Positions 21,907 to 60,355 of a stretch of 64,000 bases of DNA are shown here, piece by piece. Each line of letters opens with the position of its first letter. Position 1 is the stretch's first letter. Location: positions 64,001 to 128,000 of the IMG/VR virus record IMGVR_UViG_3300030098_006179; one strand, written 5' to 3'. The notes below the pieces were generated by a model that was given only the letters and a program-made list of their open reading frames with translations, was not told the origin of the DNA and did not search any database. The position numbers were made by a program, and so were the translations under genes. The stretch comes from a virus.

Positions 21907-23110
21907 GCATTTTTAATATGTGAAAGTTTTGAACTTCTTTCCAGAAATCTTCGTTTTGTTTTATTTGTGTTGGTTGCTGTGGATTTTCAACATCGTTTCT
22001 GTTTTCATAATCACATATACTTTTATAAACTTTAAAATTTGATAAAACTGGACCATTAGAAATGTAATATAGAGAATCTATATCTAAATCTTTTAATTCT
22101 TCTATGTCTTCTTTTTTGGGAATTTTAATATTATTTATAATATCGTTATCTAAATAATTAATCTTTTTTAAATTTGTTTCCTCTTCGCTTAAATAAGTCA
22201 TTATGTTGTATTGAATGCCCATGCTTTGAATTTCATCAATAAAATCTGGATCATCATTCTTCTCTAGAAAAAACGCCATGTGGTGTACGTTTTGTTTAAA
22301 CTGATTTAATAAATTTAAATTAATTCTTTTATTAGTTACAATAACGCATTTAAATTTAGACAATTGTTTTGCTAAATTTTGTTCATTAAAATATTTATCC
22401 ATTCTTACAAGAATCACGTTTCCGCTATCGGCATCAATATCTGCTTGTTGGTCGGGGACAAACTGTATACTTTTATTTTGATAATTGTCTCCAATGAATA
22501 CTGTTTCAAAATTAATTTTGAATTTTAAATTTAAAAAATTAAATATAGATTTTGAAATTTCTTCTGGTTTAATTTTGTTTATGTCGCCACTAAAACGGTC
22601 ATAGCTTGATTCTTTATTCCAATATGGATAATTATTATTGTTTTCTGTGTCTATGTAAACAATATTTTTATCATGCATTGAAGCAATTTCTAGATCTATT
22701 CCATTCTCAGAAACGTGAAGAAGGGAATTTTTAATTATATAAGACAAAGAACTATGATCTAATGCATTTTCAAAATTAATACAATTATTAAATTTATGTT
22801 TTATATTTGAATTAAGTAAAATTATTTTAATTCCTTCTTTTTCAAGAATAGGAAAACACAAATTAATTACATCAGCCCAGTTTCTGTAAAAGGGTAAATC
22901 TCTTCCTTCTCCCAAATATACAGTTATAAACTTATCGTAAGACATTGGATAATACTTTTCATATATCTCTGGTCTATCAATTTTTAAGCTAAGGTTATTA
23001 GCGTATGATTCAATTTCGTGCATGATAAATTTATTCTTTTGAAATTTTGTAAAAGTTTTTATTGTCAAAGAAAGAAGAGCTATACACCACCTTGAAATAG
23101 TCCGTAGCAT
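21887..23110 (-). CDS. Divergent GT9 (heptosyltransferase-like, GT-B) protein; true start probably MHEIESY (~23023)
   Basis: YRNWADVI...SLSYIIKNSLLHVSENGIDLEIASMHDKNIV...IKPEEI resembles a degenerate GT9 C-terminal lobe. Confidence 0.4.
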   Translation of the reverse strand: MLRTISRWCIALLSLTIKTFTKFQKNKFIMHEIESYANNLSLKIDRPEIYEKYYPMSYDKFITVYLGEGRDLPFYRNWADVINLCFPILEKEGIKIILLNSNIKHKFNNCINFENALDHSSLSYIIKNSLLHVSENGIDLEIASMHDKNIVYIDTENNNNYPYWNKESSYDRFSGDINKIKPEEISKSIFNFLNLKFKINFETVFIGDNYQNKSIQFVPDQQADIDADSGNVILVRMDKYFNEQNLAKQLSKFKCVIVTNKRINLNLLNQFKQNVHHMAFFLEKNDDPDFIDEIQSMGIQYNIMTYLSEEETNLKKINYLDNDIINNIKIPKKEDIEELKDLDIDSLYYISNGPVLSNFKVYKSICDYENRNDVENPQQPTQIKQNEDFWKEVQNFHILKMLDTNSN

Positions 23111-35841: not shown

Positions 35842-36184
35842 TATTATCTATAAAATCTATTATTGTTTTTGGTTTTCTGGACGTTTTGCCTTTGGGGCCA
35901 AGAACCTTATCCCCTAAAGTATACTTCTTTTTTTCTGGTAAAGCAAGCCTAAAAAGGCTTTGTTGTTTATATAGAAACTTTAAGCCGTCTTTGGTTAAAA
36001 ACCAAGCTAGTGAATTTAATTTAAAATCTAATTTTAAAGAAGTAAAAAAATTATCATCTTGAAATTTATCAAAAAGCTTTTTGGCTATAGCAACCTCTCT
36101 TCTCCATCCGGGAACCTTTAAGGATTTTGGATCTTTTAAAAACCTTTCAACAAATATTTGATACTTATTCTTCTTTCTGGGCAT
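35819..36184 (-). CDS. Hypothetical basic protein
   Basis: Fills the gap between gmd and recA with overlaps at both ends. Confidence 0.6.
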   Translation of the reverse strand: MPRKKNKYQIFVERFLKDPKSLKVPGWRREVAIAKKLFDKFQDDNFFTSLKLDFKLNSLAWFLTKDGLKFLYKQQSLFRLALPEKKKYTLGDKVLGPKGKTSRKPKTIIDFIDNNEEENEN

Positions 36185-37220
36185 CTAGGTCAAATTCTAC
36201 CATTCTTTTTACAAGTTTGTCAAATGTAATTTTTGGTTTCCAACCAAGATTTTCTTTTGCTGCGGTGGGATCGCCAAGAAGCAGGTCTACTTCTGCGGGT
36301 CTATAAAATTTTTCATTTATTACAACCAAACTATGTTTATGACTGCTACCTTTATAAACGTACCTTTCGTCTAGTCCTTCTCCTTCCCAGTAGCCATCTA
36401 TTTTAGCAGCTTTAAATGCTAGTTCAACAAATTCTTTTATTGTGTGGGTTTCGCCGCTTGCCAAAAGGTAATCTTTAGGTTCTTCTTGGTTGACCATTAA
36501 CCAAACACCTTCAACAAAATCTTCACTGTCGCTCCAATCTCGCTTTGAATGAATGTTTCCTAATTCAATTGGAGTTGGGGCTTCTATGTCAATACCTGTA
36601 CCTAGTTCTTTTTTAATTCTAGCAACGCCTTTGGTAATTTTTCTTGTAACAAATTCTTCCCCACGCTTTGTTCCTTCGTGATTAAAAAGTGTTCCATGTA
36701 CGGCGTACATATTATAAGATTCCCTGTATACTTTCACAAGATGCCTAGCAGCGCACTTAGAGGCTCCATATGGACTGCGAGGTTTGAGTGGGTGCTTCAT
36801 GTCTTGTGGAGCATAATCAACGTCTCCAAACTCCTCACTGCTTCCCGCACTATAAAATCTACAATTCGGCTGATATGCCCTAACCGCTTCTAAACAACGC
36901 ATGACACCCACTGCGTTAGCGTCAAATACTTGCATGGGCATGTCCCAGCTACAACCAACAAAAGAGTTGGCGGCAAAGTTGATAAAATAATCTGGTTGAA
37001 TATCCTGAACTAATTTAGCTATACTGTATTCGTCTACTAAATCACCATATACTAATTGAAAATTTGGGTGATCTAAAAAGTTTTCACAATTTGAAAAGTT
37101 TGGATTTGATACTCTGCGAATCATACCAAAGACTTTATTCTCTGGGTTTTTTAAAAGGTATTCGCACATATTGGCCCCATCTTGACCAAGTACTCCAGTT
37201 ACAAGAATTTTTTTACTCAT
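36165..37220 (-). CDS. gmd: GDP-mannose 4,6-dehydratase
   Basis: TGVLGQDG, SSEEFG, PRSPYGASK, LFNHE..RGEEFVTRKI, LGN..KRDW, YRPAEVDLLLGD. Confidence 0.95.
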   Translation of the reverse strand: MSKKILVTGVLGQDGANMCEYLLKNPENKVFGMIRRVSNPNFSNCENFLDHPNFQLVYGDLVDEYSIAKLVQDIQPDYFINFAANSFVGCSWDMPMQVFDANAVGVMRCLEAVRAYQPNCRFYSAGSSEEFGDVDYAPQDMKHPLKPRSPYGASKCAARHLVKVYRESYNMYAVHGTLFNHEGTKRGEEFVTRKITKGVARIKKELGTGIDIEAPTPIELGNIHSKRDWSDSEDFVEGVWLMVNQEEPKDYLLASGETHTIKEFVELAFKAAKIDGYWEGEGLDERYVYKGSSHKHSLVVINEKFYRPAEVDLLLGDPTAAKENLGWKPKITFDKLVKRMVEFDLDAQKEE

Positions 37221-38185
37221 TAAAATGACCTTAAATTATCTTCGTTAGCTCTATACCAATTATATGTACTTTTCAAGCCTTCTTCTAAAGAAATCGTAGG
37301 CTTCCACCCAAAGCTTTTTATTCTTGAATTGTCCATTAATTTTCTTAATGTTCCATCCGGCTTATTTAATTCAAATTGAATTTCACCTTCGTACATGACT
37401 GTGTTAGATATTGTTTTTGCTAAATCTGCAATAGAAATATCTTCACCACTACCAACGTTTAAATGTGAAATATTTTTACTATAAATATCTTCTGCATCAA
37501 CATTTTCTAAAACAAAAACAGCAGCTTTAGCCAAATCGTCTACGTGTAAAAATTCTCTTTTTGCTTTTCCTGTACCCCAAACATTAACCACGGAACAGAT
37601 AGCCTGTTTGGCTTCATGGAATTTTCTTAATAATGCTGGTAACACGTGAGAATTATCGGGGTGAAAATTATCATTTGGGCCATATAGATTAGTTGGCATT
37701 ATTGAAATAAAATTACATCCATGTTGTTTATAATAGCTTTCGCACATTTTAATGCCTGCAATTTTTGCTATAGCATATGGTTCATTTGTATACTCTAATG
37801 GAGAAGTTAAGAGGTATTCTTCTTTAATTGGCTGATCTGCAAATTTTGGATATATACAAGAACTCCCCAAGAATAATAGTTTCTTTACTCCATGTTTGTG
37901 GGATGAATTAATTAAGTTGTTTTGTATTTGTAAGTTTTCATAAATGAAATCTGCTCTATAGGTGTTATTTGAATGAATGCCCCCGACTTTCGCCGCGGCA
38001 TCTATAACAACGTCAACGTCATTTTCTTTAAACCATTTATCTACCGACTGTTGATTTAATAAATCAAGATGTTGCCTATCTGCAAAATAGATAGTCTTAT
38101 ATCCATTGCTTGATAAATTTCTCATTATTGCTGAACCTACCATTCCATTATGTCCAGCTATAAAAATCTTGGCATTTTTATTCAC
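37220..38185 (-). CDS. fcl: GDP-L-fucose synthase
   Basis: AGHNGMVGSA, AAAKVGGI, LGSSCIYP, YAIAK, PTNLYGPNDNF, WGTG..REFLHVDD, KPDG. Confidence 0.95.
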   Translation of the reverse strand: MNKNAKIFIAGHNGMVGSAIMRNLSSNGYKTIYFADRQHLDLLNQQSVDKWFKENDVDVVIDAAAKVGGIHSNNTYRADFIYENLQIQNNLINSSHKHGVKKLLFLGSSCIYPKFADQPIKEEYLLTSPLEYTNEPYAIAKIAGIKMCESYYKQHGCNFISIMPTNLYGPNDNFHPDNSHVLPALLRKFHEAKQAICSVVNVWGTGKAKREFLHVDDLAKAAVFVLENVDAEDIYSKNISHLNVGSGEDISIADLAKTISNTVMYEGEIQFELNKPDGTLRKLMDNSRIKSFGWKPTISLEEGLKSTYNWYRANEDNLRSF

Positions 38186-38190
38186 GGTAA

Positions 38191-38219
38191 AGTATAATAT
38201 ATATAATTAGGTATGTCAA
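38191..38219 (-). promoter_or_regulatory. Near-consensus sigma70 promoter TTGACA-17-TATACT, 5 nt before the GTG of fcl; overlaps a divergent + strand TATAAT
   Basis: Minus strand TTGACAtacctaattatatatatTATACTttaccGTG. Confidence 0.75.
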
Positions 38220-38941
38220 ATTTAAATGAAATCTGTGTTGGTTTAATAACTTCTTGCTCTAAAAATTACGCAGAACGTTCAAAAAACATTTTAAATACTT
38301 GGGGTAAGGACATTGAACACATTTACTTTTTTACAGATTGCGAAAATAAAGATTACAGATATTTAAATCTAACCAAAAATAATTTTCTATCTTCAAACAA
38401 AGAAAAGATGATAAAAGGAATTTTAAATTTATATGAAATGAATCTTGATTGTAAATATTATCTTTTGGGAGACGACGACAATTATTTTTTTATTAAAAAT
38501 ATTTTAAATTTTTGTAAAAAAAACATTACAGAAAACGAATTAACTTTTTATGGTAGAGATATTTTTAATTGGAAAATAGGATACTATGACAATGCTAGAG
38601 CTATGAATCACGGCGCACACTCTGCTGGAGATACATTAGATTATTGCGGAGGTGGGGGTATTTTGTTTAACTGTAAATCTTTTAAAAAGATGGGGGAATA
38701 TATTAAAAATAATTATAATAAAATTATGGAAAAATTTCCTAGGTATGCTGATGTATGCATGGGTTATATATGTAAATATTCTAGTATTAAATTTATTCCA
38801 GAAGATAGATTTCACACTCATTGCTATGTATCTTTTTATGAAGAAGACTATAAAGAAGAAAAAATAAAGTCATATTTAGAAGATCAATTTAGTTTTCATA
38901 GAATTACTCACGAAGACCACTATAAATTTTTAAATATTTAA
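38213..38941 (+). CDS. GT31 Fringe / core-1 beta-1,3-galactosyltransferase-like glycosyltransferase
   Basis: R..I..TW, FFTD, YYLLGDDDNY, YCGGGG, ADVCMG, RFH, FSFH. Confidence 0.8.
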   Translation: MSNLNEICVGLITSCSKNYAERSKNILNTWGKDIEHIYFFTDCENKDYRYLNLTKNNFLSSNKEKMIKGILNLYEMNLDCKYYLLGDDDNYFFIKNILNFCKKNITENELTFYGRDIFNWKIGYYDNARAMNHGAHSAGDTLDYCGGGGILFNCKSFKKMGEYIKNNYNKIMEKFPRYADVCMGYICKYSSIKFIPEDRFHTHCYVSFYEEDYKEEKIKSYLEDQFSFHRITHEDHYKFLNI

Positions 38942-40720: not shown

Positions 40721-41166
40721 TTTGCGGGAACTCCTTTGACTAGCGTATTGTCAGGAACGTCTTTTGTAACGACTGAACCTGCTCCTATTATACAATTATC
40801 TCCAATATTTACTGGAAGTATGGTGGCGTTAGATCCTATTCTTACGTTATTTCCTATTTTTGTTTTTTTCATTTTCCATTCTTTGAATTCCTTTGAGTCG
40901 GTAAATAAATCATTAACAAACATTACTCCATGAGCAATGAAACAATTTTCTCCAATCTCCACTCCAGAACATATAAAAGAATGACTGCTTATTCTGGAAT
41001 TTTTTCCTACGCTTGACCCGCTTTGAATTTCTACAAATGGACCTACAAATACTCCATCTTTTAATTCGCATTCATATAAATTGCACGGCTCTATGAGAGA
41101 AATATTTTTTCCAAATTTACATTTTAAAAAAAATAATCTAAATAATTTTCTGACCATTTTTATCAT
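40717..41166 (-). CDS. Hexapeptide-repeat sugar N-acetyltransferase (WbpD/FdtC-like)
   Basis: [38 protein letters not shown]. Confidence 0.9.
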
Positions 41167-43573
41167 ACGGCAATATAAGAGTATAATTTTCTTTTATCAA
41201 GGTATGTCTACCCAAATCTATAGAAATTTCTTTACAAAGAATTTTAAAATCGGGATTGTTTGTGTTTTCTACAACAATTAAGTTCTTATAATCTTTTAAT
41301 TTTTTACAAATTTCTTTTGAAGTTTTGTATTCGTTAATAATAATGCAATCTATAGAGTTATCTATTTTTTTAATTGATTTATATTTTTTAATGCTTGGAT
41401 TTAATGGTAGCCAAACTGCCAAGGTTTTTATTAATGAAGAGGAGTTTTTGTGTCGTATTTTATTAATCCAATATTTAATATGAAGTTTATATTTTGTCGT
41501 TTTGAATTTGTTAAAAATTTTTTCATATTTTTTACTTAATAAATCTTCTGAAATTTCATTCCAATCTTCGATAATTAAGATCGGAAGATCTTTATAGAAA
41601 GATACATTGTGGCAGTTTTTAACAATAGGAATAGTTTCCAAATATAAGCATTCCCAAATTCTATGGCAATCTGTACCCATCCCCTCTGGAGATACAGCGT
41701 ATTTACATTTAGAAAGATCCTCTAAATATTCTTTAAATGGTTTTCTTTCTGAAAAATGTACATAGTTTAGATCTTTTAAATCTTCTAATATCTTTCTTCT
41801 ACTAGAATTTGTTTTAGTGTCAAAATTTAAATATAATAATTCTTTTTTGTAATTTTTTTGATCGATTATTTCATTTAATAATTTAATGTCTCCGTGAGGC
41901 CACCTTGCATTTGCAATTCCAAGGGGAATAGATTCTAATTTTTCATGTTCTACATTAGCATTTTGTGCGTACCAATTTATAATTTTGTCATTATCTAAAT
42001 ATTTTTTGTAATTGTCTGATATTTTATGAGCGCTATTGTGAGTAATTATATTTATTTTGTATTTTATATTTGGTAAAACTTTTTCAAAAAAATTAGAAAT
42101 ATAATCAGTTTTAATAAAAATTATTTTGCCGTCTTCTTCTATCAAATTAGAAAAATCACTCTTTTCAAAATCATCATATACAAAATCTGAATATTTTCTG
42201 AATCCCATTCCAGTTATAATTGGATATGAATCAAGAATTATTTTGGGATCAACTTTAACTTTTTTCTTTATTAAAGCGCACCCCTTTCCGTTTTTGTTCC
42301 ATTTATCGCATGTTATTGAATTCTCTAAACAGAAATCATCTACAGCATTATTTACTTCTGGTATAGAGCATCCATCTGGAGGACCGGAATAGTAATCATC
42401 TATTATCATTAATGCTCCGTCGTTCATTTGAGAATAAATTCTTTCTATATCTTCTTTTGCGCCTTCATAAGTGTGATCTCCGTCTACAAAAGCATAATCT
42501 ATTCCATTTTTAAAATTTTTATTAAAAAACTCTTTATTTAAAATCTTTTTACTGTCACCTTCTATTACTAAATAATTTTCAAAATCATTTTGTAATTTAT
42601 CAGCTATTTTCCAGCCCTCTTTCCCTGCATAATTTAAATTTATATCAATCGATATAAATTTTTCTGGCTTAATTGTGCATAAGGTTGTTGCTGCACTTCT
42701 CCCCGTGGCAAATCCTGTTTCTAAGCAATATTTGGGTTTTAATTTTTTTAATTGTTCAATTAAAAAGTCTCTTTCGTTTTCATTCAAATGTCCCCAAGGA
42801 TGCCAGTAATTTTCAATAGTTTTTTCATTAAGTGCGGCTTTGCATATAGAATCAATATCTTTTTTGTATTTTTCATAAGGTCTAGCGCTATGGCAGTCAT
42901 AATAATACTCAGATTTTACTTTTTCTAAATCAAACTTCCAGTTACTTCTATCTATTCTTCTTCCATTTTGACCGCCAGTTCTTGGCATGTATAAAATATC
43001 TAATGGGTTAGATTCTTTATATTTCGGAATAACTAAACTTGGATAATCCTCATCCAAAAACCAATATGTTTGAGTTAATTTTTCTTTTGGATTTTTAAAA
43101 TCTTGATGAAGCATAGATAAGGAGTCTTCCCATCTTTCTGGCAAGTTCAAAACTTTTTTAAAAGTTCTACCTAAAGCTATATGATAACAAGATGGAATTC
43201 TTCCGTAAGATTCTATACATGGATTTATATGTACGTATTTATTTTCTGAAACATTTTTAATTTGATCTATAAAGTAATGTTTTGAAAGTGGAAGCATGTC
43301 TATATCAGATATAATAGAAACTTTATTGGGAAACAGGGTTGGAAACCAATATCTTATCCATAAAACTTGAATAGAAATTGGTATATTTTTTATATATTTC
43401 CACCTAAAGACTTTACCGTATTCTTCTGATAATTCAACGTCTTGTTTTTCGTCTATATAAATTAAAATGGGTTCTACTCCAATTTTTTCTTTCCAAAGTT
43501 TGGATACTATTGGCCAAAAATCTAAATAGGAAGAATCAGAATTAGAACTTAGTATTGCTTGGTCTATTTTCAT
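41138..43573 (-). CDS. Multidomain protein: GT-A-like + class I SAM methyltransferase + exostosin/GT47-like
   Basis: ISDIDMLP; [11 protein letters not shown]...[14 protein letters not shown]...IIDD; [31 protein letters not shown]. Confidence 0.75.
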
Positions 43574-48610: not shown

Positions 48611-48990
48611 TTATTTTCTGTGCTCCATTTTTCTCCAAAATGACCTATTTCTGCCCTTATTTCGTCATTGGGGTCATACTTCCTATTAACATAATACAAC
48701 AAAATTGATCCCGGTTCCAAACATTTATATCCATGATAAACTCCGGGGATAATTTTTAATACTCTTGGGTTTTTGTCTGACAAATATTCAAATCTACATC
48801 CATTTTCCTCTGTTGCTAAACCCACTTTAAATGATCCTTTGATGCATGTCCAATAATCTGTTTGAAGATCGTGCTTATGCCAAGCTACAATATGTTCGGT
48901 TGAATTAACAACCGATACGTTAATTTGTCCATCTAAAATGTCAAAAACATCAATTAGCCTTTGGGCTCTGTCATCTTCGTGAAATTTCAT
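48607..48990 (-). CDS. RmlC-like cupin (dTDP-4-keto-6-deoxyglucose epimerase/isomerase)
   Basis: EDDRA, AWHKH..QTD, IPGVYHGY, YDP.DE. Adjacent to rmlB. Confidence 0.75.
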   Translation of the reverse strand: MKFHEDDRAQRLIDVFDILDGQINVSVVNSTEHIVAWHKHDLQTDYWTCIKGSFKVGLATEENGCRFEYLSDKNPRVLKIIPGVYHGYKCLEPGSILLYYVNRKYDPNDEIRAEIGHFGEKWSTENK

Positions 48991-49393
48991 TTTTTATTTT
49001 GGTTGTAGATATTGCTTCTGTATATGGAAAAAATATAATTTTGGCACCATAACTTTTTAATTCGTTTTCATAGTCAGACCATTTCTGATCGTCGTACCAG
49101 TCGTCCCCAACGAAAAGAATATCATACTTTAATTTCCTATGTGCTTTGATTTTGTCAAGATCATTTTGTGGAATGACAGTGTCAACATATTTAATATTTC
49201 TAACTATTTCTATTCTATGTTCAAAGGAAATGATGGGGTTTGTGTTTTTTTTAGATTTTATTAGCTTATCTGTGCTTACGGACACTATGAGGTGGTCACA
49301 CATTGATTTTGCATTTCTCAATATGTTTAAGTGGCCAACATGGAACATGTCGAAAGCGCCACAGGTATAGCCTACTACTGTTTTTTTATTCAT
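48971..49393 (-). CDS. tagD: Glycerol-3-phosphate cytidylyltransferase-like
   Basis: GAFDMFHVGHLN, VSTD, FVGDDW, PYTEAISTT. Confidence 0.85.
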   Translation of the reverse strand: MNKKTVVGYTCGAFDMFHVGHLNILRNAKSMCDHLIVSVSTDKLIKSKKNTNPIISFEHRIEIVRNIKYVDTVIPQNDLDKIKAHRKLKYDILFVGDDWYDDQKWSDYENELKSYGAKIIFFPYTEAISTTKIKNEISRR

Positions 49394-51110: not shown

Positions 51111-52601
51111 TTATATAAAATCATCTCTTAGAACGTCACCCCCGGGCTTTCCGTTTCTTATTGGGTTTCCGTTAATACAATCTTTTCCATATCTGGATTT
51201 TTGCGTCACGTATTCGTGGGGATTGGTTGGACATTTGAATGTATAACCTTCTAGCTTTATTTCTTCCAACTCTTTGTCAAAAAATTTTTCGTCAACGGCT
51301 CTTTTATTTACTAGGTCTGGTACTCCGTGAGCATCACTCACCAAATTATCTTTTGCTGAAATATATTTATTGTCTTTTTTTGTATATTCTCTAAACTCTG
51401 TGGCTGTTAACTGCTTTGAAGCAAACATGTAATTTATTTCTTCTATTTCTTTTACATGTCTGTGTAAATTACCAGCATAAAAATCCATTGGATTAAAATT
51501 AGTCAAAAAGTTAATGCTGTGATTATTGGTTGATTTAGCATTGCCCTGAAAAATTCCTATGTCTGCATCATCGTCAAATAAAGGTATTCTACCGTTCCTA
51601 ACTGCTCCTAATAAGGTTCCGCAATCTATCCACCATTTTATTCCCTGTTTTGAAAGCTCGTCTGTTACTTCTTTTAGATGTTTGGCTAATTCTTTTCTAA
51701 AAAATCTAGACGTATATGCTGACCAAGAATTATAATAACAATCATATAATCTTTTGGGTGACTTTATTGGTTGTGAAAGTTGGCTTGAAACTAATTCTTT
51801 GAAAACATTTTTTCCAAAAACTCTTATAAGATAAGGTATTGGATTTTCTAAGCTGTAAGCTTTTACGGGTCCATAACTATAAATTTTTCTATCTCCCAAC
51901 TCTTCATCTGTAACATCTGGATCAAATGATATTTTTATATATACTTCTTCTGTTAGATGTATTTTATCATCTTTAAAATTAAAATATTGACTGTTGTTGA
52001 TTAGCTCCCTGATTGCTTGCTTATCTTTTAAAGGACAACCAATATGAATATAGTCAGAATATACAATATGATTTCTATTTCTGACTGCCCCCAAGCACGA
52101 ACTCTTTATAAGAAAATAGTTTATATTAGCGTTGTCTAAAATGTCATGGACTCCCGCCATTAATTCATAAAAGTGATAAATATTTTTATGATCATTATTT
52201 TCATACTCTTCTGGGCTGTATTCTAATATATAACATTCTTCTTCTTCTGTTATTTTCCATTCTGCTAATTCTGGAATGGTCAGTCCATCAATTTTATTTA
52301 CAAAAATTACATCTATATTATTATCTAATGATTCTTGTAGTTTCTTTTCTGTAAAATCTAAATTGTTATTATCTATAACTAATAAATCATAATTAAAATC
52401 ATGAGGATTAACTTCAACGTGAGGGTTAATTCCTAGCTGTTGTAGGTGGGGGTAAATTTTTTTATTTAATAAATTGTCAAACGTATTTGTTCCATCTAAT
52501 ACTGCTTGAAGTATTGGGGAAAAGTCTTCCGAAAAAATACCCACGTTTACGGAGTCTACTGAGTAATATTTTATTAAATTTAAAGTTTTATTCGAAGTCA
52601 T
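51111..52601 (-). CDS. LicD-family phosphotransferase with two LicD-like domains
   Basis: Degenerate SCLGAVRN...SDYIHIG followed by intact GTLLGAVRN..FDDDADIG. Confidence 0.8.
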   Translation of the reverse strand: MTSNKTLNLIKYYSVDSVNVGIFSEDFSPILQAVLDGTNTFDNLLNKKIYPHLQQLGINPHVEVNPHDFNYDLLVIDNNNLDFTEKKLQESLDNNIDVIFVNKIDGLTIPELAEWKITEEEECYILEYSPEEYENNDHKNIYHFYELMAGVHDILDNANINYFLIKSSCLGAVRNRNHIVYSDYIHIGCPLKDKQAIRELINNSQYFNFKDDKIHLTEEVYIKISFDPDVTDEELGDRKIYSYGPVKAYSLENPIPYLIRVFGKNVFKELVSSQLSQPIKSPKRLYDCYYNSWSAYTSRFFRKELAKHLKEVTDELSKQGIKWWIDCGTLLGAVRNGRIPLFDDDADIGIFQGNAKSTNNHSINFLTNFNPMDFYAGNLHRHVKEIEEINYMFASKQLTATEFREYTKKDNKYISAKDNLVSDAHGVPDLVNKRAVDEKFFDKELEEIKLEGYTFKCPTNPHEYVTQKSRYGKDCINGNPIRNGKPGGDVLRDDFI

Positions 52602-54908: not shown

Positions 54909-55792
54909 GACAATAACCCTTGCAGTTTATTCTCCCAAATTTCTAAGCATGGCTTTGCTGATAAATTTTTAACAATGAATTCTCTTGGAGCGTAATCTTT
55001 TGACAAAAACAAATCCCAATCTTCTTTCCATCTGTCTGGATAAGTTCTTAGCCCGCAACTGTCATCAAAATAAGACGCGGCTGTAGCTGTTAGTGGATGT
55101 TCTGGAAGGTATGTTGACCAAAAACTATTCAACTCTTCCCTGCAGCTTTTTACATCTATAACAAATATTGGAGTGTCTGAACTTAGGGTTTCTTGAAAAG
55201 CAAAACCTTGGCTTTCATGTCTACCTATCCATATAGCGTAAGGGGCTTTTGATATAGCATCAGCAAAATCTGACTCTTGATATCTTTTTTCATAATCAAA
55301 AACTATAAAGTCGTCACCCAAATGTTCAAGAACATCATTCAGTCTTTGTCTGTCTACTTGCTTAAAATAAATTACCGGCTTACCGTCTTTCTTTTGTGGT
55401 TGAAATTGTTCTATGTTAACCGCAAAAGGTAAAGCTATAGCATTAAAGTTTTTATTGATGTCTGTAGCTAAATCACAATTCCAAGGTGATAAAAAATTAA
55501 ATAAAGTTTTTTTATTAAAAATTTTTGAGGCAAAATCTTCCGTTACTTCTGGAAACATTATGTGTGGCCCGTATATTACCCCTCCTTCATGACCTTTAAA
55601 GGATTTAAATTGACCCAAACTAATCACCCAATCGTACTTATTGTTGCTGTTATAGATGGGAATAGCGTCCCAGTGTTCTCCGTTTTTGTAGCACTGAAAA
55701 TCTACATCCATTCCTTCTTGGACCATTAAATCTAATCCAAGTTTGTTTTTGTTGTGAAACCAACCTTCAAAATAATACTTCATAATTACCAA
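54905..55792 (-). CDS. GT-B (GT4-like) glycosyltransferase
   Basis: PFAVNIEQFQP, HESQGFAFQETLSSDTP, YFDDSCG, YAPREFI. Confidence 0.6.
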   Translation of the reverse strand: MVIMKYYFEGWFHNKNKLGLDLMVQEGMDVDFQCYKNGEHWDAIPIYNSNNKYDWVISLGQFKSFKGHEGGVIYGPHIMFPEVTEDFASKIFNKKTLFNFLSPWNCDLATDINKNFNAIALPFAVNIEQFQPQKKDGKPVIYFKQVDRQRLNDVLEHLGDDFIVFDYEKRYQESDFADAISKAPYAIWIGRHESQGFAFQETLSSDTPIFVIDVKSCREELNSFWSTYLPEHPLTATAASYFDDSCGLRTYPDRWKEDWDLFLSKDYAPREFIVKNLSAKPCLEIWENKLQGLLS

Positions 55793-56898
55793 CCTTCTTC
55801 TATTGATCCTATAATATATTCTCTATCTTCTTCTGTTACCCACCACCCGTTAGGTATGCAAATCATTTCGTTGCATAATTTATCTAAATTTGGTAGAGAA
55901 CTTTTATACTGAGAAACGCATGAATGAATATCGTTTCTTTCATGAACTCTGCTAACCATTATTTCTTTTTCTTGCATGAGTTGCATAAAGCCATCTCTAT
56001 CTTCCACCTTGATTGTATGTATCCAAGATGCGGATTTTCTGTCGTTTTCTTTATTTAAAATTGTTATACCTTCTCTATTTTGTAATGCCTTGTCGTAGTA
56101 TATTGAGTTTTCTGTAAATTTATTTCCTCTTTCCAAGAATAATGGAAAATTATGTATGCCAATTGTGGCGTTTATATCATTCATGTGATACTTGTATCCC
56201 CACTCTGGGACATCTTCTTCACACCTAAAGTCTTTTTTGTTTGTGTTTCTGTCTATTCCATACCACCTGAGAACTTTTGCTCTTTCGTATAGTTCTTCAG
56301 AGGGGAGTAGCATAACTCCTCCATCTCCAGTGGTAAAATGTTTGATTGCTTGAAAACTGTAAACCGCAATGTTTCCGTGATTACCTAATTTCTTTCCTTT
56401 ATATTCGCTACCCATTGAGTGAGCACAGTCTTCTACAATAGGTATAAAATGACCAAAAAGGTCTTGAGCTTCTTTCTGTATGTTAGATAGCTCGTCTAAA
56501 TCTAAGGGGTATCCTCCCCAATGAACAACGCAAATAGCTTTAGTGTCTTTAGAAATTTTTCTTCTAAGATCGTCTAAATCCATATTACATGTGTTAGGGT
56601 CAACGTCTACCCATTTAATTTTTAAACCATTAGCTAGTATAGGCCAGTTTGTTGCGGTACATGTTAAAGCTGATGTTAAAACTTCGTCTCCCGGCTGCAG
56701 TCCGAGTAGTCTATAAGCCAGCGTAAGTCCAGATGTGGCAGAGTTTAATGTCGCACAGTATGGGTTATTAAAATAATTAGATAATAGAGATTCAAACTCC
56801 TCAACTTTTGGTCCTTGTCCTATAAAGCCAGATGTCATAACCTCTCCAAGAGGTTTTACAACGTCTTTACTCATTGAAACTTTAAATAAAGGAATCAT
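55786..56898 (-). CDS. DegT-family sugar aminotransferase (perosamine-synthase-like)
   Basis: GQGPKVEEFE, NSATSGL, EDCAH, SFQAIKH.TTGDGG, GYKYHMND. Confidence 0.92.
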   Translation of the reverse strand: MIPLFKVSMSKDVVKPLGEVMTSGFIGQGPKVEEFESLLSNYFNNPYCATLNSATSGLTLAYRLLGLQPGDEVLTSALTCTATNWPILANGLKIKWVDVDPNTCNMDLDDLRRKISKDTKAICVVHWGGYPLDLDELSNIQKEAQDLFGHFIPIVEDCAHSMGSEYKGKKLGNHGNIAVYSFQAIKHFTTGDGGVMLLPSEELYERAKVLRWYGIDRNTNKKDFRCEEDVPEWGYKYHMNDINATIGIHNFPLFLERGNKFTENSIYYDKALQNREGITILNKENDRKSASWIHTIKVEDRDGFMQLMQEKEIMVSRVHERNDIHSCVSQYKSSLPNLDKLCNEMICIPNGWWVTEEDREYIIGSIEEGW

Positions 56899-57025: not shown

Positions 57026-57712
57026 TTAAATATCTTCATTGTATTTATTTAGTAGGTCTCCTATGTCCCACTGTTTGGAATTAAATCTACTTTTCTCATA
57101 AACTCTATGGCACACTAATATTTCATCAAGATTATAAAAACTGCATTTCATGCTCATTAATTTTAACCACATGTCCATGTCTTCGTAGCCCGGATATTGC
57201 GCGTCCCACCCCCCGCTTTCAATAATTTTAGATTTTTTAATTATAGAAGTACTGTTTGCTATTTGGTTTTGACCTTTTTTTGTTAGCCTTTTTATAAATT
57301 CATTTGTTGTTTCTAATGTTGGTCCGGGTCCGTACTTTGTTGGAGTTTTGCCTTCTTCGTCTATATATAAAATTTGAGACCCAATAACATCATAATCCCC
57401 AATTAGCGGTAATTGTTTTTCTAGTTTATTTTCCATCCAGACATCATCATCGTCCTGTATTGCAACGTTTGAGTATTTAGATTCTTCTACTAAAAGGTTT
57501 AAAGTTTTTGAAACACCTAAAGGTTTTTCTCCGAAGTTAAAAATTTTAATTCTCGAGTCATTAAATGAAGAAAGAATATTTTGAGTGTTGTCTTTTGATC
57601 CGTTAATTCCAACTAGAAGTTCTAGATCTTTAATTGATTGATTTAAAACTGATTTTACAGATTCTTCTATAAATCTTTCTCCATTGTACGTTGGTAATAA
57701 TACAGATATCAT
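57026..57712 (-). CDS. GT2 glycosyltransferase
   Basis: ISVLLPTYNGE, QDDDDVW..KLEKQ, EDMDMW. Confidence 0.9.
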   Translation of the reverse strand: MISVLLPTYNGERFIEESVKSVLNQSIKDLELLVGINGSKDNTQNILSSFNDSRIKIFNFGEKPLGVSKTLNLLVEESKYSNVAIQDDDDVWMENKLEKQLPLIGDYDVIGSQILYIDEEGKTPTKYGPGPTLETTNEFIKRLTKKGQNQIANSTSIIKKSKIIESGGWDAQYPGYEDMDMWLKLMSMKCSFYNLDEILVCHRVYEKSRFNSKQWDIGDLLNKYNEDI

Positions 57713-58422
57713 AATACTTCACTTGCCCCTTCTCCATGATTACCAAAAGCTTGGTGATCTTTATCTATAGCAATAAGTTTAGGCTTGTGATTTCTTGGAT
57801 GGCTATAAGAATAACAATATCCACAGTCTAATACTTTAGTTGGGGGATTATCTAAAAACCATCTATTAAGATGGGATTCGTCATGCCACTTTGCTACGAT
57901 TTGATTTGCTCTATCAATATCAACATTTGTTGATATCATTTCAGACATTCTTAAAAACTCATTAGTTGATCCCCCATTAAACCCTCCAGCAAAATATAAG
58001 ACTTGCTCATTTGGGGCAATGTAAGCTAGGCTGTTTGGATTGGTTTCAACATTACCTCTTCCTCCATATATGCCGGGATGTACTGTGGCTACTCTATCGC
58101 TAAGTATTTCATTACCAACTTCATTTTCAAAAATCATGTCTGCATCGGTATAGAATAAATAATCCTGAGTTGTTAATAGTTCTTTATTTTGAAAAAACGT
58201 ATGATACCTCTCTAGAGTAATATATGGCCACTGCTTGTGCTCTTGGGGAACTTTAACAACGTTGTGTTCGGGAAATTCTTTTGCCGTATCAGTAAATAAA
58301 AAATAAGTTACATCACAGTCTTTAAGAAAGTATTGGTCAGCAGTTTCAAAAAGAGCTTTTAAAAAAGTGTCGTATTTTTGTGTGGCAATTATAAGTAAAC
58401 CAACTTTTATATTATTTTCCAT
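57709..58422 (-). CDS. GT6 (ABO-like) alpha-1,3-GalNAc/Gal transferase
   Basis: IATQKY, FTD, WPYITLERY, YTDADM, HPG, YFAGGFNGG, AKWHDESHLN. Confidence 0.9.
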   Translation of the reverse strand: MENNIKVGLLIIATQKYDTFLKALFETADQYFLKDCDVTYFLFTDTAKEFPEHNVVKVPQEHKQWPYITLERYHTFFQNKELLTTQDYLFYTDADMIFENEVGNEILSDRVATVHPGIYGGRGNVETNPNSLAYIAPNEQVLYFAGGFNGGSTNEFLRMSEMISTNVDIDRANQIVAKWHDESHLNRWFLDNPPTKVLDCGYCYSYSHPRNHKPKLIAIDKDHQAFGNHGEGASEVL

Positions 58423-59252
58423 GACGCGGGTATCCTGTGTTCTAAATAGTTTTCTTTGTCTTGGTAGGTTTGCTCAACTCTTTCTCTTGAAAACCAGTTA
58501 CTTGGGGCTACGATTTTTTTATTGTTGTTTTTATTTAAATATGCTGCCCACCAACTGAAAGAAGAGTTTGCTATAATGTTATTTTTGCAGAAAGACATTA
58601 AAAATAATTCTAATATATCCTCTTTTATATATTTTTTTGAGTTGGCTTCCCTTTTGTTTTCGTTTAAAGTGACCACTTCTTCTTTGTTGTGTTCTCTGAA
58701 CTCAATATATTTACAATTGTAATCTTTAAAATTTTCTTTGCACCAATCTATGTCGTCAGAAAACACATAGTATTCTTCATTCTTTCCAATGTAATCTATA
58801 GCTCTGGAGTAGTATTGCATGTTTTGTACTGGATGATAGTTCTCTAACAAAAGATAATCTCCTCTTCTTACATGGATAGAGTTTGAATGATTTACGTTGG
58901 GGTATTTATCATACAATTCTTTAATAAGCTTTGGTTTTAAATTAAAAAAACTTAAAATTTCATCTCTACAGTAATCAAAATATAGATGGGATTGAAAATA
59001 ACCATTTATGTTTATATTTATAGCTGGATTAATTATTCCCCTCATGTCTCTATAGTCAGACTTGCCTTCGTCTCCGGAAACTTGTGGAGTAATGACCATT
59101 TCTTGCAACGGTTTAGTAAAAAATGATTGGTATTCCCAGTGTGGAAAACAGGCCTTTATTCCACATTTTCTAGCTATACCCAAAGTGGAAGCAATTTGAA
59201 ACATTTGATTTCCAAGCCTACCTAATTTACCTAAATTGACAAAACTTAACAT
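58407..59252 (-). CDS. GT11 alpha-1,2-fucosyltransferase
   Basis: GRLGNQMFQ, GYFQS, IHVRRGDY, FSDDIDWC, IIANSSFSWWAAYL. Confidence 0.92.
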   Translation of the reverse strand: MLSFVNLGKLGRLGNQMFQIASTLGIARKCGIKACFPHWEYQSFFTKPLQEMVITPQVSGDEGKSDYRDMRGIINPAINININGYFQSHLYFDYCRDEILSFFNLKPKLIKELYDKYPNVNHSNSIHVRRGDYLLLENYHPVQNMQYYSRAIDYIGKNEEYYVFSDDIDWCKENFKDYNCKYIEFREHNKEEVVTLNENKREANSKKYIKEDILELFLMSFCKNNIIANSSFSWWAAYLNKNNNKKIVAPSNWFSRERVEQTYQDKENYLEHRIPASWKII

Positions 59253-60355
59253 AAATTATATCTACTTTCTAATTCTTCTTTGTTTAAGTTGAATTGATCA
59301 TAAAATGATAACTCTGGGTTTGAGGCATCAAAGTTGCTGGAGTTTTCGGCTAATAAGCCCACGCCAATAAACTTATATTGATTTTTGAATGATTCCATAT
59401 AATAATTCATTCCTTGTTCGTCGTTTTCTATTGGCAGTACTTTTACATTTTTTACATCTTCTATCATTTTAGATACAAGTTCTACATGTTTTGATGGAAT
59501 AATAACTTCACTATATTGTTCTGCAAAATATCTTATTAAAGCATTACAAGATTTAAAATCATTTTCTGATTGATGAGCAAACAAGAAGACTCTATTTGAT
59601 TCTTGGCTATAAGAGTAGACCTTATTTTTTCCAGTTTGAAAAGGAGATACTCTATCGCCAACGAATAATCCATATTTATTTTTAGATTCGTTTGGAAAAG
59701 GAATAGAGTGTTTCCATTTTATTTTTTCGTGAGATGAATGATCAACGCAGTCTTCTTCAAAAAGTTTGTATATAATTTGCTCTAAAAAATTTTGATCCTG
59801 ACTGTATTGCCATTCATAATTAAATTTTTTTGCGTATAAGTTTATTAAATTGGTTATTCCATAAAATTTTTTACATTTTAATCCCCACATTCCCCCCATT
59901 ACTATTTTAGAATGAGCTTCTGGGGAATCAAAGTCATGCATTGTGTGAAGCGATTCTTTTCTGTTTAACCAGTCTTCTACTGCACCTTTTTCTTTTTCTC
60001 CAACTATAGAATCTGAATCTCTACTAATCATAGTTTCAACCATTGGATCATCTATGGCAAAAAATCTCCAATACATAGGCCATATTTTCGACTCTAATAC
60101 TAAAACCTCACACCTCTCATCTGATAAGAGCGTATTTAAATTTTTTATATCTTTAGTACAGTAAAATCTGCAAGTCCATTCTGGATAAATTTCTACAGCT
60201 TCATCTATATTTGTTTCCGCGCCGTTTAAAAAAATGCTTCTATCTCCATATAACGAAAAAGAGATGATCTTTTTGTTTTCTTGTGGCTTTAGGGTGTGTT
60301 TTAATATTTTATATTCTTGATTTTTTGCACCCAATAGATGTTCAAAGCTATTCAT
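59246..60355 (-). CDS. Putative glycosyltransferase-like protein
   Basis: KIISFSLYG, YPEW.CR.Y, WRF, SRDSDS, MGGMWG, DQNFL..IY; a family seen in phage glycan clusters. Confidence 0.5.
   Translation of the reverse strand: MNSFEHLLGAKNQEYKILKHTLKPQENKKIISFSLYGDRSIFLNGAETNIDEAVEIYPEWTCRFYCTKDIKNLNTLLSDERCEVLVLESKIWPMYWRFFAIDDPMVETMISRDSDSIVGEKEKGAVEDWLNRKESLHTMHDFDSPEAHSKIVMGGMWGLKCKKFYGITNLINLYAKKFNYEWQYSQDQNFLEQIIYKLFEEDCVDHSSHEKIKWKHSIPFPNESKNKYGLFVGDRVSPFQTGKNKVYSYSQESNRVFLFAHQSENDFKSCNALIRYFAEQYSEVIIPSKHVELVSKMIEDVKNVKVLPIENDEQGMNYYMESFKNQYKFIGVGLLAENSSNFDASNPELSFYDQFNLNKEELESRYNLC

What the first reader, a model, noticed from the sequence alone, without database searches (positions are those of the whole stretch)
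57709..59252. Phage-encoded histo-blood-group-like pathway: adjacent GT11 + GT6, with GDP-fucose synthesis
Seen: an alpha-1,2-fucosyltransferase (HVRRGDY) overlaps a GT6 gene (WHDESHLN), flanked by a GT2 and a 4-epimerase-like SDR. gmd and fcl sit at 36165-38185 and a GT31 beta-1,3-transferase-like gene at 38213. Established: GT11 makes Fuc-a1,2-Gal (H antigen) from GDP-fucose, and GT6 adds a1,3-GalNAc/Gal to it (A/B antigens). This GT6 keeps the metal-binding DxD (DAD), whereas most bacterial GT6 have NxN. It has AGG at the donor-specificity site, which suggests GalNAc transfer. Inference: the phage carries donor synthesis and all transferases for an A-like epitope.
Basis: partly seen in the sequence, partly recalled or inferred. 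Interest (0 to 1): 0.85.

Follow-up and report, generated by a model that had tools for sequence, protein, structure and literature searches.

The report
Phage fucosyltransferase plus ABO-type transferase pair
An uncultured 162-kb phage carries overlapping genes for a fucose-adding enzyme and a relative of the human ABO blood-group enzyme, plus genes for the fucose donor. By sequence the set should build a blood-group-A-like sugar cap, but the same gene set is already annotated in cyanophage P-SSM2 and recurs in many phages, so it is a new member of a known kind.

Summary
A GT6 gene (57709-58422, minus strand) and a GT11 gene (58407-59252) overlap by 16 nt. They sit in an eight-gene, translationally coupled string inside a ~27-kb glycan island of a 162-kb IMG/VR phage. 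gmd, fcl and a Fringe-like GT lie at 36165-38941.

The GT6 belongs to the minimal DxD clade described in 2012 (cyanophage P-SSM2, marine metagenomes, Parachlamydia PaGT6). PaGT6 was assayed as a metal-dependent GalNAc transferase acting on H antigen. All 162 clade members I collected have DxD and most have AGG, so neither feature is special to this phage. The acceptor-site residues match the fucose-accepting pattern of GTA, GTB and BoGT6a.

Linkage is strong. GT11 lies within 10 kb of GT6 in 50 of 80 viral loci, against 14 of 80 in the reverse direction. One giant-virus MAG ORF fuses GT6 to GT11. A distant relative of this phage keeps gmd, GT11, GT2 and GT6.

P-SSM2 already carries gmd, fcl, GT11, GT6 and the same epimerase. 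This scan has noted the pair in at least 38 other genomes. No activity has been tested, and the acceptor is unknown (host surface glycan or virion protein). The claim of "all transferases" goes too far.

The parts
57709..58422 (-). GT6 (ABO-family) retaining glycosyltransferase, minimal DxD type, 237 aa
   Evidence: Pfam PF03414 E 6e-46. PDB phmmer hits: BoGT6a 2e-43, human GTA/GTB ~5e-38. D93/D95, A145-G146-G147, W179, E182, A218 and K221 are conserved.
58407..59252 (-). GT11 alpha-1,2-fucosyltransferase-family gene, 281 aa, overlapping the GT6 start by 16 nt
   Evidence: Pfam PF01531 E 5e-23, above cut-off. Motifs IHVRRGDY, VFSDD and NSSFSWWAAYL. N15, Q19, R129, N229, S230, F232, W234 and W235 are invariant among 26 viral homologues.
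57026..57712 (-). GT2 glycosyltransferase, 228 aa, overlaps the GT6 stop by 4 nt. It is a recurrent partner of GT6.
   Evidence: Pfam PF00535 E 7e-23. Homologue next to GT6 in huge phage LR745206 (208 bits) and in G002 (46% identity). GT2-GT6 fusion ORFs in five IMG/VR loci.
59246..60355 (-). Unnamed glycosyltransferase: GT-A (GT8-like) N-terminal domain with a DSD motif, plus a C-terminal Rossmann-like domain, 369 aa
   Evidence: No Pfam or NCBIfam hit. AlphaFold2 pLDDT 93.9. Foldseek hits: GlyE 5gvw E 4e-8, LgtC, glycogenin. 3,707 representative homologues. Fused to GT2, GT25 or GT61 in relatives.
60348..61259 (-). GalE-like UDP-hexose 4-epimerase-type SDR, 303 aa; candidate supplier of UDP-Gal and/or UDP-GalNAc
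   Evidence: Pfam Epimerase E 5e-62. Best NCBIfam hit is GalE, 186 bits, below the 262 cut-off. Best PDB hit is 4zrm UDP-glucose 4-epimerase, 6e-55. Matches P-SSM2 PSSM2_270 at 351 bits.
61256..62646 (-). Sugar-1-phosphate nucleotidyltransferase-like gene (61256-61690) and GHMP sugar kinase-like gene (61687-62646), in the same coupled string
   Evidence: PF01467 and TIGR02199 rfaE_dom_II, 83 bits; PF00288 and HddA-like, 97 bits. All are below the equivalog cut-offs.
62647..63660 (-). GT2-like glycosyltransferase, first gene of the coupled string
   Evidence: Pfam Glyco_tranf_2_3 E 5e-7.
36165..37220 (-). GDP-mannose 4,6-dehydratase (gmd)
   Evidence: PF16363 E 1e-108; TIGR01472 347 bits. 52% identical to the gmd of relative G002.
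37220..38185 (-). GDP-L-fucose synthase (fcl)
   Evidence: NF047922 E 1.5e-143, 478 bits, cut-off 500. Matches P-SSM2 PSSM2_258 at 372 bits.
38213..38941 (+). Fringe-like (GT31-type) glycosyltransferase; candidate for a beta-1,3 linkage, role unassigned
   Evidence: Pfam Fringe E 3e-12; Galactosyl_T E 0.004, below cut-off.

Best explanation
The region is a phage-borne module for a fucosylated glycan, and one more member of the GT11 + GT6 + gmd/fcl clusters already annotated in cyanophages.

Inferred pathway:
1. Host GDP-mannose is converted by the phage Gmd and Fcl to GDP-L-fucose.
2. The GT11 enzyme adds Fuc alpha-1,2 to a terminal beta-galactose.
3. The DxD-type, metal-dependent GT6 then adds alpha-1,3-GalNAc to that same galactose. 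The donor is UDP-GalNAc, plausibly supplied by the adjacent GalE-like epimerase. The product is a blood-group-A-type cap.

The genes are translationally coupled (overlaps of 4 to 16 nt) in an eight-gene string within a ~27-kb island of soluble sugar enzymes.

Shown: gene presence, family membership, catalytic and specificity residues, linkage and fusion in relatives. Inferred: donor, acceptor, linkage and order of action.

What carries the glycan is unknown. The phage has no lipid-carrier or export genes. So it either feeds host undecaprenyl-linked surface-glycan assembly (about 45%) or glycosylates proteins such as virion proteins directly in the cytoplasm (about 40%).
For: Family membership:
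- GT6 and GT11 score far above the Pfam cut-offs.
- The GT6 aligns end to end with BoGT6a and human GTA.
- It keeps DxD, W179/E182 (human W300/E303) and K221.

Specificity residues:
- Donor site A145-G146-G147 equals AGG of BoGT6a, a GalNAc transferase. GTA has LGG; GTB has MGA (GTB from established literature).
- Acceptor positions A1 = His115, A2 = Gly117 and A7 = Ala218 match the enzymes that take 2'-fucosylated acceptors (GTA, GTB, BoGT6a). They do not match alpha3GT, which has Gln, Trp, Trp (PMC3516806 section 6; mapping).
- The assayed clade member PaGT6 transfers GalNAc to H trisaccharide and 2'-fucosyllactose. It needs Mn2+ or Mg2+ and is inactive on LacNAc.

Donor supply:
- gmd and fcl are present.
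- The DegT gene at 55786-56898 resembles the TDP-sugar 4-aminotransferases AtmS13/CalS13 (397 bits) and keeps the Lys. It is therefore not a ColD-type dehydratase, and no colitose route is seen.

Linkage:
- GT11 lies within 10 kb of GT6 in 50 of 80 IMG/VR loci, always on the same strand. It is within 2 kb in 35 and adjacent in 14. Among loci with full flanks the figure is 23 of 36.
- In reverse, only 14 of 80 GT11-centred loci hold a GT6. GT11 is at least six times commoner in IMG/VR. This asymmetry is expected if GT6 depends on GT11's product.
- One 1,114-aa ORF in a giant-virus MAG fuses GT6 and GT11.
- G002, a complete 200-kb relative (DnaE 50% identical, 51 shared ORFs), has gmd, GT11, GT2 and GT6 in one block.
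- L082, the nearest GT6 (56% identity), has the same order: GT8-like, GT11, GT6, GT2.
Against: - No enzyme of this phage, or of any phage, has been assayed. The product is inferred from residues and from one assayed bacterial clade member.
- The loop that carries Thr245 (GTA) or Thr134 (BoGT6a) is three residues shorter here, with Asn where most clade members have Thr. BoGT6a Trp218 is His208 here. Acceptor recognition may therefore differ.
- The enzyme that would make a beta-Gal acceptor is not identified.
- gmd and fcl lie 20 kb from the pair, with other donor pathways (dTDP-sugars, CDP- or ADP-activated sugars) in between. The island probably makes a larger or different glycan in which an A-type cap is at most one part.
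- The relative G002 has gmd but no fcl.
- 30 of 80 viral GT6 loci show no GT11 within 10 kb. Some of these loci are truncated.
Confidence: 0.62

Rival explanations
1. The two enzymes sit in one glycan operon but do not act on the same galactose. GT6 would add an alpha-linked hexose or HexNAc to an unfucosylated acceptor, and GT11 would fucosylate another position. No A- or H-type epitope would form.
For: - 30 of 80 viral and 52 of 80 cellular GT6 loci have no GT11 within 10 kb. This includes the closest GenBank phage hit, LR745206.
- Loop 1 of the acceptor site is three residues shorter than in GTA and BoGT6a, and Trp218 of BoGT6a is His here.
- The island holds at least ten other transferase-like genes.
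Against: - Positions A1, A2 and A7 follow the fucose-accommodating pattern, not the alpha3GT pattern.
- PaGT6, from the same clade, is inactive on LacNAc.
- A GT6-GT11 fusion ORF exists.
- Linkage is asymmetric: 62% against 17%.
Confidence: 0.22
2. The GT11 enzyme uses a GDP-6-deoxyhexose other than fucose (colitose, 6-deoxytalose, rhamnose, perosamine-derived). The cap would then not be fucosylated.
For: - From memory, not checked here: some GT11-family enzymes are reported as colitosyltransferases.
- The relative G002 has gmd but no fcl.
- Only 8 of 80 viral GT6 loci have an fcl within 10 kb, against 25 with gmd.
Against: - This phage has an fcl scoring 478 bits on the GDP-L-fucose synthase model, adjacent to gmd.
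- No ColD- or ColC-type genes were found. The DegT at 55786-56898 is a Lys-bearing TDP-sugar 4-aminotransferase type.
- The other DegT sits with RmlA, RmlB and FdtA.
Confidence: 0.08
3. The island is cellular DNA wrongly joined to a phage contig, or a recently captured host O-antigen cluster that is not used by the phage.
For: - Composition dips to 27-30% GC at 38-48 kb, against about 35% elsewhere.
- The nearest GT6 homologue with a name (L082) is filed under an 'archaeon' MAG.
Against: - The island is flanked on one contig by phage replication and tail genes on both sides.
- Its genes are tightly overlapping and intact.
- A complete relative phage carries the core genes between shared phage genes.
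- Viral GT6 sequences cluster apart from cellular ones: 11 label changes against 55 expected.
- L082 is a 6.4-kb contig syntenic with this phage.
Confidence: 0.03

Closest known systems
Prochlorococcus phage P-SSM2 'LPS' gene cluster (AY939844: PSSM2_257 gmd, _258 fcl-like, _265 GT11, _268 GT6, _270 epimerase)
   Same: It has the same enzyme set in one phage cluster: gmd, fcl (372 bits to the window's), GT11 (32% identity), GT6 (42.5% identity, DxD, minimal) and a GalE-like epimerase (351 bits), plus GT2 genes.
   Different: P-SSM2 is a T4-like cyanomyovirus. This phage has a DnaE-type polymerase and is unrelated in backbone. In P-SSM2 two genes separate GT11 and GT6; here they overlap. Here gmd and fcl lie 20 kb away, and the island is about twice as large, with dTDP-sugar and CDP/ADP-sugar routes.
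PaGT6 of Parachlamydia acanthamoebae and the 'clade 1' minimal DxD GT6 enzymes (Thiyagarajan et al. 2012, PMC3516806)
   Same: A minimal catalytic domain of about 230 aa, the DxD motif, and no membrane-binding C-terminal domain. PaGT6 was assayed as a metal-dependent GalNAc transferase on H antigen and 2'-fucosyllactose. The window's enzyme shares the invariant residues of this clade.
   Different: About 45-50% identity to Parachlamydiaceae sequences. The viral sequences form their own groups in the tree. The window's subgroup has Asn where most of the clade has Thr in loop 1.
Bacteroides ovatus BoGT6a (PDB 4ayj, 4ayl, 4cj8), blood-group-A synthase
   Same: It is the best structural-database match (E 2e-43). 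It has the same AGG donor-site triplet, the same His, Gly, Tyr, Trp, Glu and Lys substrate contacts, and a small residue at A7.
   Different: BoGT6a has NxN and is metal-independent. It carries a C-terminal membrane-binding extension. Its loop 1 is three residues longer.
Escherichia coli O86 O-antigen cluster (gmd, fcl, GT2 WbnJ, GT11 WbnK, GT6 WbnI), blood-group-B mimic (named in papers found; details from established knowledge)
   Same: The same logic applies: GDP-fucose genes, a GT2 beta-galactosyltransferase, a GT11 and a GT6 build a histo-blood-group determinant on a microbial glycan.
   Different: O86 has the initiating transferase, Wzx, Wzy and manB/manC. The phage has none of these. 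The O86 enzyme transfers Gal; the phage enzyme is predicted to transfer GalNAc.

Membership tests
CAZy GT6 / Pfam PF03414 | Profile match above the curated cut-off over the catalytic domain | tested here: met
   157 bits against a cut-off of 25; residues 3-219 match profile positions 73-301. NCBIfam NF041524 scores 191 bits, below its subfamily cut-off of 250.
CAZy GT6 / Pfam PF03414 | Catalytic Glu (GTA E303) and stacking Trp (W300) in the WHDESH motif; C-terminal Lys (alpha3GT K359) | tested here: met
   W179, E182 and K221 are present. They are invariant or nearly so in 162 clade sequences.
CAZy GT6 / Pfam PF03414 | Retaining alpha-1,3 transfer of Gal or GalNAc | not testable with these tools
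   Needs an enzyme assay.
Minimal DxD GT6 clade (P-SSM2 / PaGT6; PMC3516806) | DxD metal-binding motif rather than NxN | tested here: met
   D93-A-D95. Asp at both positions in 162 of 162 collected relatives.
Minimal DxD GT6 clade (P-SSM2 / PaGT6; PMC3516806) | Catalytic domain only: no N-terminal stem or TM segment and no C-terminal membrane-binding domain | tested here: met
   237 aa. The alignment to BoGT6a covers residues 6-229 and to GTA residues 4-228. No hydrophobic segment was found.
Minimal DxD GT6 clade (P-SSM2 / PaGT6; PMC3516806) | Phylogenetic placement with phage and marine sequences, apart from the NxN and vertebrate clades | tested here: inconclusive
   The tree places it with L082 and IMG/VR sequences. 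No NxN or vertebrate sequences were included, so separation between clades was not tested here.
CAZy GT11 / Pfam PF01531 (alpha-1,2-fucosyltransferase) | Profile match above the cut-off, with the HxRRGDY GDP-fucose motif | tested here: met
   82 bits against 23.9. IHVRRGDY at 126-133; R129 is invariant, and D132 and Y133 are at least 90% conserved in 26 homologues.
CAZy GT11 / Pfam PF01531 (alpha-1,2-fucosyltransferase) | Uses GDP-L-fucose and makes Fuc-alpha1,2-Gal | not testable with these tools
   Only indirect support: gmd and fcl are in the genome and no colitose genes were found.
Histo-blood-group A-type synthesis pathway (as in B. ovatus or E. coli O86) | GT6 acceptor site fitted to a 2'-fucosylated galactose (A1 His, A2 Gly/Ser, A7 small) | tested here: met
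   H115, G117 and A218.
Histo-blood-group A-type synthesis pathway (as in B. ovatus or E. coli O86) | Donor-site residues of a GalNAc transferase (Gly at GTA position 268) | tested here: met
   A145-G146-G147, identical to BoGT6a A155-G156-G157.
Histo-blood-group A-type synthesis pathway (as in B. ovatus or E. coli O86) | An enzyme that supplies the beta-Gal-terminated acceptor | tested here: inconclusive
   The candidates are the GT2 at 57026, the Fringe-like GT at 38213 and the GT8-like GT at 59246. None could be assigned a linkage.
Histo-blood-group A-type synthesis pathway (as in B. ovatus or E. coli O86) | Lipid-carrier initiation and export (initiating transferase, Wzx, Wzy or ABC, ligase) | tested here: not met
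   No ORF in the 162-kb genome has more than three hydrophobic segments, and none in the island has any, by a Kyte-Doolittle scan. The scan is crude. The host may supply these functions.

The most novel reading that the evidence does not exclude
The phage uses this export-free, all-soluble island to glycosylate its own virion proteins in the cytoplasm, and the GT11/GT6 pair caps those glycans with a blood-group-A-like trisaccharide. Phage particles, and by the same module many aquatic phages and some giant viruses, would then display histo-blood-group-type sugars. That could affect adhesion to mucus or lectins, grazing, or recognition by hosts.
Probability: 0.15. Interest if true: 0.7.

Novelty: new member of a known kind. 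Interest (0 to 1): 0.3.

Why it matters
It extends the GT11 + GT6 + GDP-fucose module from T4-like cyanophages to an unrelated DnaE-type phage lineage. It also adds comparative evidence that the two enzymes work together: asymmetric linkage, a GT6-GT11 fusion and several GT2-GT6 fusions.

If the product were shown to be an A-type cap, and especially if it sat on virions, this would be the first histo-blood-group-type glycan on a phage. It would also bear on the proposed prokaryote-to-vertebrate transfer of GT6.

As it stands the gene set is already on record. The open question is what the glycan decorates, and that is not answered by this window.

Tried and rejected
- Megablast of 56-62 kb against GenBank phages found no match.
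- The search for related loci with the single GT6 protein found nothing. The alignment-based scan worked.
- So I could not read the contigs of the 79-88% identical GT6 homologues, find the environment, or look for expression.
- There are no tRNA genes in the window, so no host clue from that source.
- The promoter and terminator scan of 53-64 kb gave counts equal to shuffles and says nothing about operon bounds.
- GT11 has no sequence match in the PDB.
- The 369-aa gene has no Pfam, NCBIfam or Atlas family. Only the fold search placed it.
- Colitose route: rejected for lack of ColD-type genes.
- DNA glycosylation as the target: considered and set aside. GT6 and GT11 act on galactose-terminated glycans, and no hydroxymethyl-base genes were looked for or seen.
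- I did not add NxN or vertebrate GT6 sequences to the tree, because no reference to them was available without typing sequence.
Full report
**Context.** The window is bases 64001-128000 of a 162,379-bp IMG/VR virus record that CheckV rates 96% complete. Phage identity is clear.
- The plus-strand block at 1-21 kb encodes very large proteins, including one with tail-fibre domains.
- The minus-strand block from 21 to 36 kb encodes a DnaE-type polymerase, an exonuclease, a PHP protein, a PD-(D/E)XK nuclease, a primase, a DnaB-type helicase and a UvsX-type recombinase.
- The polymerase has only distant (27-32%) matches in GenBank phages, and none is a T4-like cyanophage.
- From 36 to 64 kb almost every gene is a sugar-nucleotide enzyme, glycosyltransferase or methyltransferase.

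**Observation.**
- GT6 (57709-58422, minus strand) scores 157 bits on Pfam PF03414. GT11 (58407-59252) scores 82 bits on PF01531.
- The motifs quoted are in the translations: DAD, FAGGF and WHDESHLN, and IHVRRGDY.
- The two genes overlap by 16 nt. The conserved MENNIKVGLL start in the 79-88% identical homologues supports the GT6 start.
- They are the sixth and seventh genes of a string of eight running from 63660 down to 57026, in which neighbours abut or overlap by 4-16 nt. The order is: GT2-like, GHMP kinase-like, nucleotidyltransferase-like, GalE-like SDR, an unnamed 369-aa gene, GT11, GT6, GT2.
- The epimerase is therefore one gene away from the pair, not adjacent.
- gmd and fcl (36165-38185) are the best-hit families, at 347 and 478 bits. 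Both fall just under NCBI's equivalog cut-offs.
- The divergent gene at 38213 is Fringe-like.

**The unnamed 369-aa gene.** It has no family match, but HMMER finds 3,707 representative homologues. In relatives it is often fused to GT2, GT25, GT61 or TPR domains. An AlphaFold2 model built with 67 sequences has pLDDT 93.9. Foldseek places its N-terminal half with GT-A, GT8-type retaining transferases (GlyE, LgtC, glycogenin). Its C-terminal half matches Rossmann-like domains. It is a further glycosyltransferase, with D113-S-D115 as its DxD.

**What kind of GT6.**
- The enzyme aligns over its whole length with BoGT6a (E 2e-43) and human GTA/GTB (about 5e-38).
- Thiyagarajan et al. 2012 (PMC3516806) divide GT6 into three clades. 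[quoted passage not shown]
- They report that PaGT6 transfers GalNAc to H trisaccharide and 2'-fucosyllactose, needs Mn2+ or Mg2+, and is inactive on LacNAc.
- The window's enzyme (237 aa, DxD, no extension) fits this clade.
- I collected 80 IMG/VR loci, 80 loci from species genomes and four GenBank phage loci. In these, both Asp are present in 162 of 162 sequences and the donor-site triplet is AGG in most.
- So DxD and AGG are the clade's normal state, not a peculiarity of this phage.
- The cellular carriers are mostly Chlamydiota and Dependentiae, with some Verrucomicrobiota, Pseudomonadota and Flavobacterium. Several IMG/VR carriers are giant-virus bins.

**Specificity residues.** I used the residue list of PMC3516806 and the printed alignments.
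- A1 is His115, A2 is Gly117, A5 is Glu182 and A7 is Ala218. Lys221 matches BoGT6a Lys231.
- This is the pattern of the enzymes that accept a 2'-fucosylated galactose (GTA, GTB, BoGT6a). Alpha-1,3-galactosyltransferase has Gln, Trp and Trp at A1, A2 and A7.
- The donor site A145-G146-G147 equals BoGT6a A155-G156-G157.
- Two differences remain. Loop 1 is three residues shorter, with Asn124 where most clade members have Thr. BoGT6a Trp218 aligns with His208.

**Do the genes travel together?**
- I searched the six-frame ORFs of the loci with a GT11 profile built by iteration. GT11 lies within 10 kb of GT6 in 50 of 80 viral loci, always on the same strand. It is within 2 kb in 35 and adjacent in 14. 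In cellular loci the figure is 28 of 80.
- Restricted to loci with full 9-kb flanks, the viral figure is 23 of 36.
- The reverse is not true. GT11 gives at least 557 IMG/VR matches against 87 for GT6. Only 14 of the 80 best GT11-centred loci hold a GT6.
- GT6 mostly needs GT11 nearby, but GT11 does not need GT6. That is what a two-step H-then-A pathway predicts. It is circumstantial, and the GT11 sample is biased towards relatives of this gene.
- Fusions add to this. One 1,114-aa ORF of a giant-virus MAG carries GT6 (588-832) and GT11 (916-1087) by Pfam. Five viral ORFs fuse GT2 to GT6.
- The nearest GT6 is L082, a 6.4-kb Tara contig filed under an archaeal MAG (56% identity, sister in the tree with support 99). 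It has the same order: GT8-like, GT11, GT6, GT2.
- G002 is a complete 200-kb IMG/VR phage. It shares 51 of 181 ORFs with this phage, including the polymerase (50% identity) and structural genes. It has gmd, GT11, GT2 and GT6 in a compact block, but no fcl anywhere.

**Already known.**
- P-SSM2 (GenBank AY939844) has gmd, an fcl homologue (372 bits to the window's), GT2 genes, GT11, GT6 and an epimerase that matches the window's SDR at 351 bits, all in one cluster. The record annotates 'glycosyltransferase family 11' and 'family 6'.
- Synechococcus phages B23 and DSL-LC02 have GT11 directly followed by GT6.
- 72 GenBank phage records hold a GT6 and 103 hold a GT11.
- S-SCSM1 was described with gmd, fcl and an alpha-1,2-fucosyltransferase (PMC9602691).
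- I found no paper that assays a phage GT6 or GT11, or that shows the product.
- Earlier reports of this scan describe the same pairing in at least 38 other genomes and reach the same verdict. I had committed to my reading before looking them up.

**Mechanism and target.**
- The most likely chemistry is: GDP-mannose to GDP-fucose (Gmd, Fcl); Fuc alpha-1,2 to a beta-Gal (GT11); then GalNAc alpha-1,3 to the same Gal (GT6, metal-dependent).
- The GalE-like SDR is a plausible source of UDP-Gal or UDP-GalNAc. Its best structural match is the Thermotoga maritima UDP-hexose 4-epimerase, 4zrm. Its substrate range here is not known.
- A colitose route is unlikely. The DegT at 55786-56898 is 397 bits to the TDP-sugar 4-aminotransferases AtmS13/CalS13 and keeps the Lys. 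The other DegT sits with RmlA, RmlB and an FdtA-like gene.
- The acceptor is open. A Kyte-Doolittle scan finds no protein with more than three hydrophobic segments in the whole genome, and none in the island.
- The phage therefore has no flippase, polymerase, ligase or polyprenyl-phosphate transferase of its own. It either loads host lipid-linked intermediates or glycosylates proteins directly. The latter is documented for mycobacteriophage virions (Freeman et al. 2023, cited). I cannot decide between these.

**Verdict.** The finding is a new member of a known kind, in a phage lineage unrelated to cyanomyoviruses. Interest is modest.

Noticed in passing
L080:5932-9276 (IMG/VR GVMAG-M-3300024261-33): One uninterrupted 1,114-aa ORF in a giant-virus MAG bin carries a GT6 domain (588-832) followed by a GT11 domain (916-1087) after about 590 aa of unknown sequence. 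This is a natural fusion of the two enzymes.
   Followed up: partly
L024:5725-7716, L032:9188-10900, L059:8294-10702, L072:8027-10717, L075:7979-10702: GT2-GT6 fusion ORFs of 570-907 aa occur in uncultured phages; one also has an N-terminal methyltransferase. In three of them (L059, L072, L075) GT11 is the next gene downstream.
   Followed up: partly
L082-L161 (genome contigs) and L071, L076, L079-L081 (IMG/VR GVMAG): Among cellular genomes, the DxD-type minimal GT6 is concentrated in protist-associated lineages (Parachlamydiaceae, Simkaniaceae, Rhabdochlamydiaceae, Dependentiae/Babeliales). It also occurs in giant-virus bins. 297 species genomes matched.
   Followed up: no
window 59246-60355: The 369-aa GT8-like protein belongs to a very large family (3,707 representative clusters at E<=1e-3, mostly viral by the Atlas) that has no Pfam or NCBIfam model. 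D113, H137, H148, G155 and G158 are invariant.
   Followed up: partly
window 41138-43573, 48971-49393, 51111-52601: The island combines a LicD-family domain, an RXYLT1 C-terminal-like domain (fused to a methyltransferase) and a small cytidylyltransferase. This set recalls phospho-alditol (ribitol or glycerol phosphate) linked glycans.
   Followed up: no
window 55786-56898: This DegT-family gene scores 397 bits against the TDP-4-keto-6-deoxyglucose 4-aminotransferases AtmS13/CalS13 of actinomycete antibiotic pathways. That is far closer than to any LPS aminotransferase in the PDB.
   Followed up: no
G002:C1:88187-95305 (L170): The complete 200-kb relative has a much smaller island of about 7 kb with gmd, GT11, GT2 and GT6, but no fcl anywhere in the genome. 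The 27-kb island here is therefore an expansion around a shared core.
   Followed up: partly
whole genome G000 (162 kb): No ORF has more than three Kyte-Doolittle hydrophobic segments, and none of the island genes has any. The phage encodes no polytopic membrane protein.
   Followed up: partly
window 1-2220, continuing upstream of the window (genome 57512-66220): The first ORF of the window is the end of a 2,902-aa open frame that starts 6.5 kb upstream of the window. It is followed in the same frame by the 1,598-aa ORF at 2257-7053.
   Followed up: no
window 23031-24917: A 628-aa protein with weak GT1-type and DUF4214 matches lies between the tail genes and the replication genes. It is 47% identical to a protein of the relative G002. 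It is a conserved glycosyltransferase-like gene outside the island.
   Followed up: no
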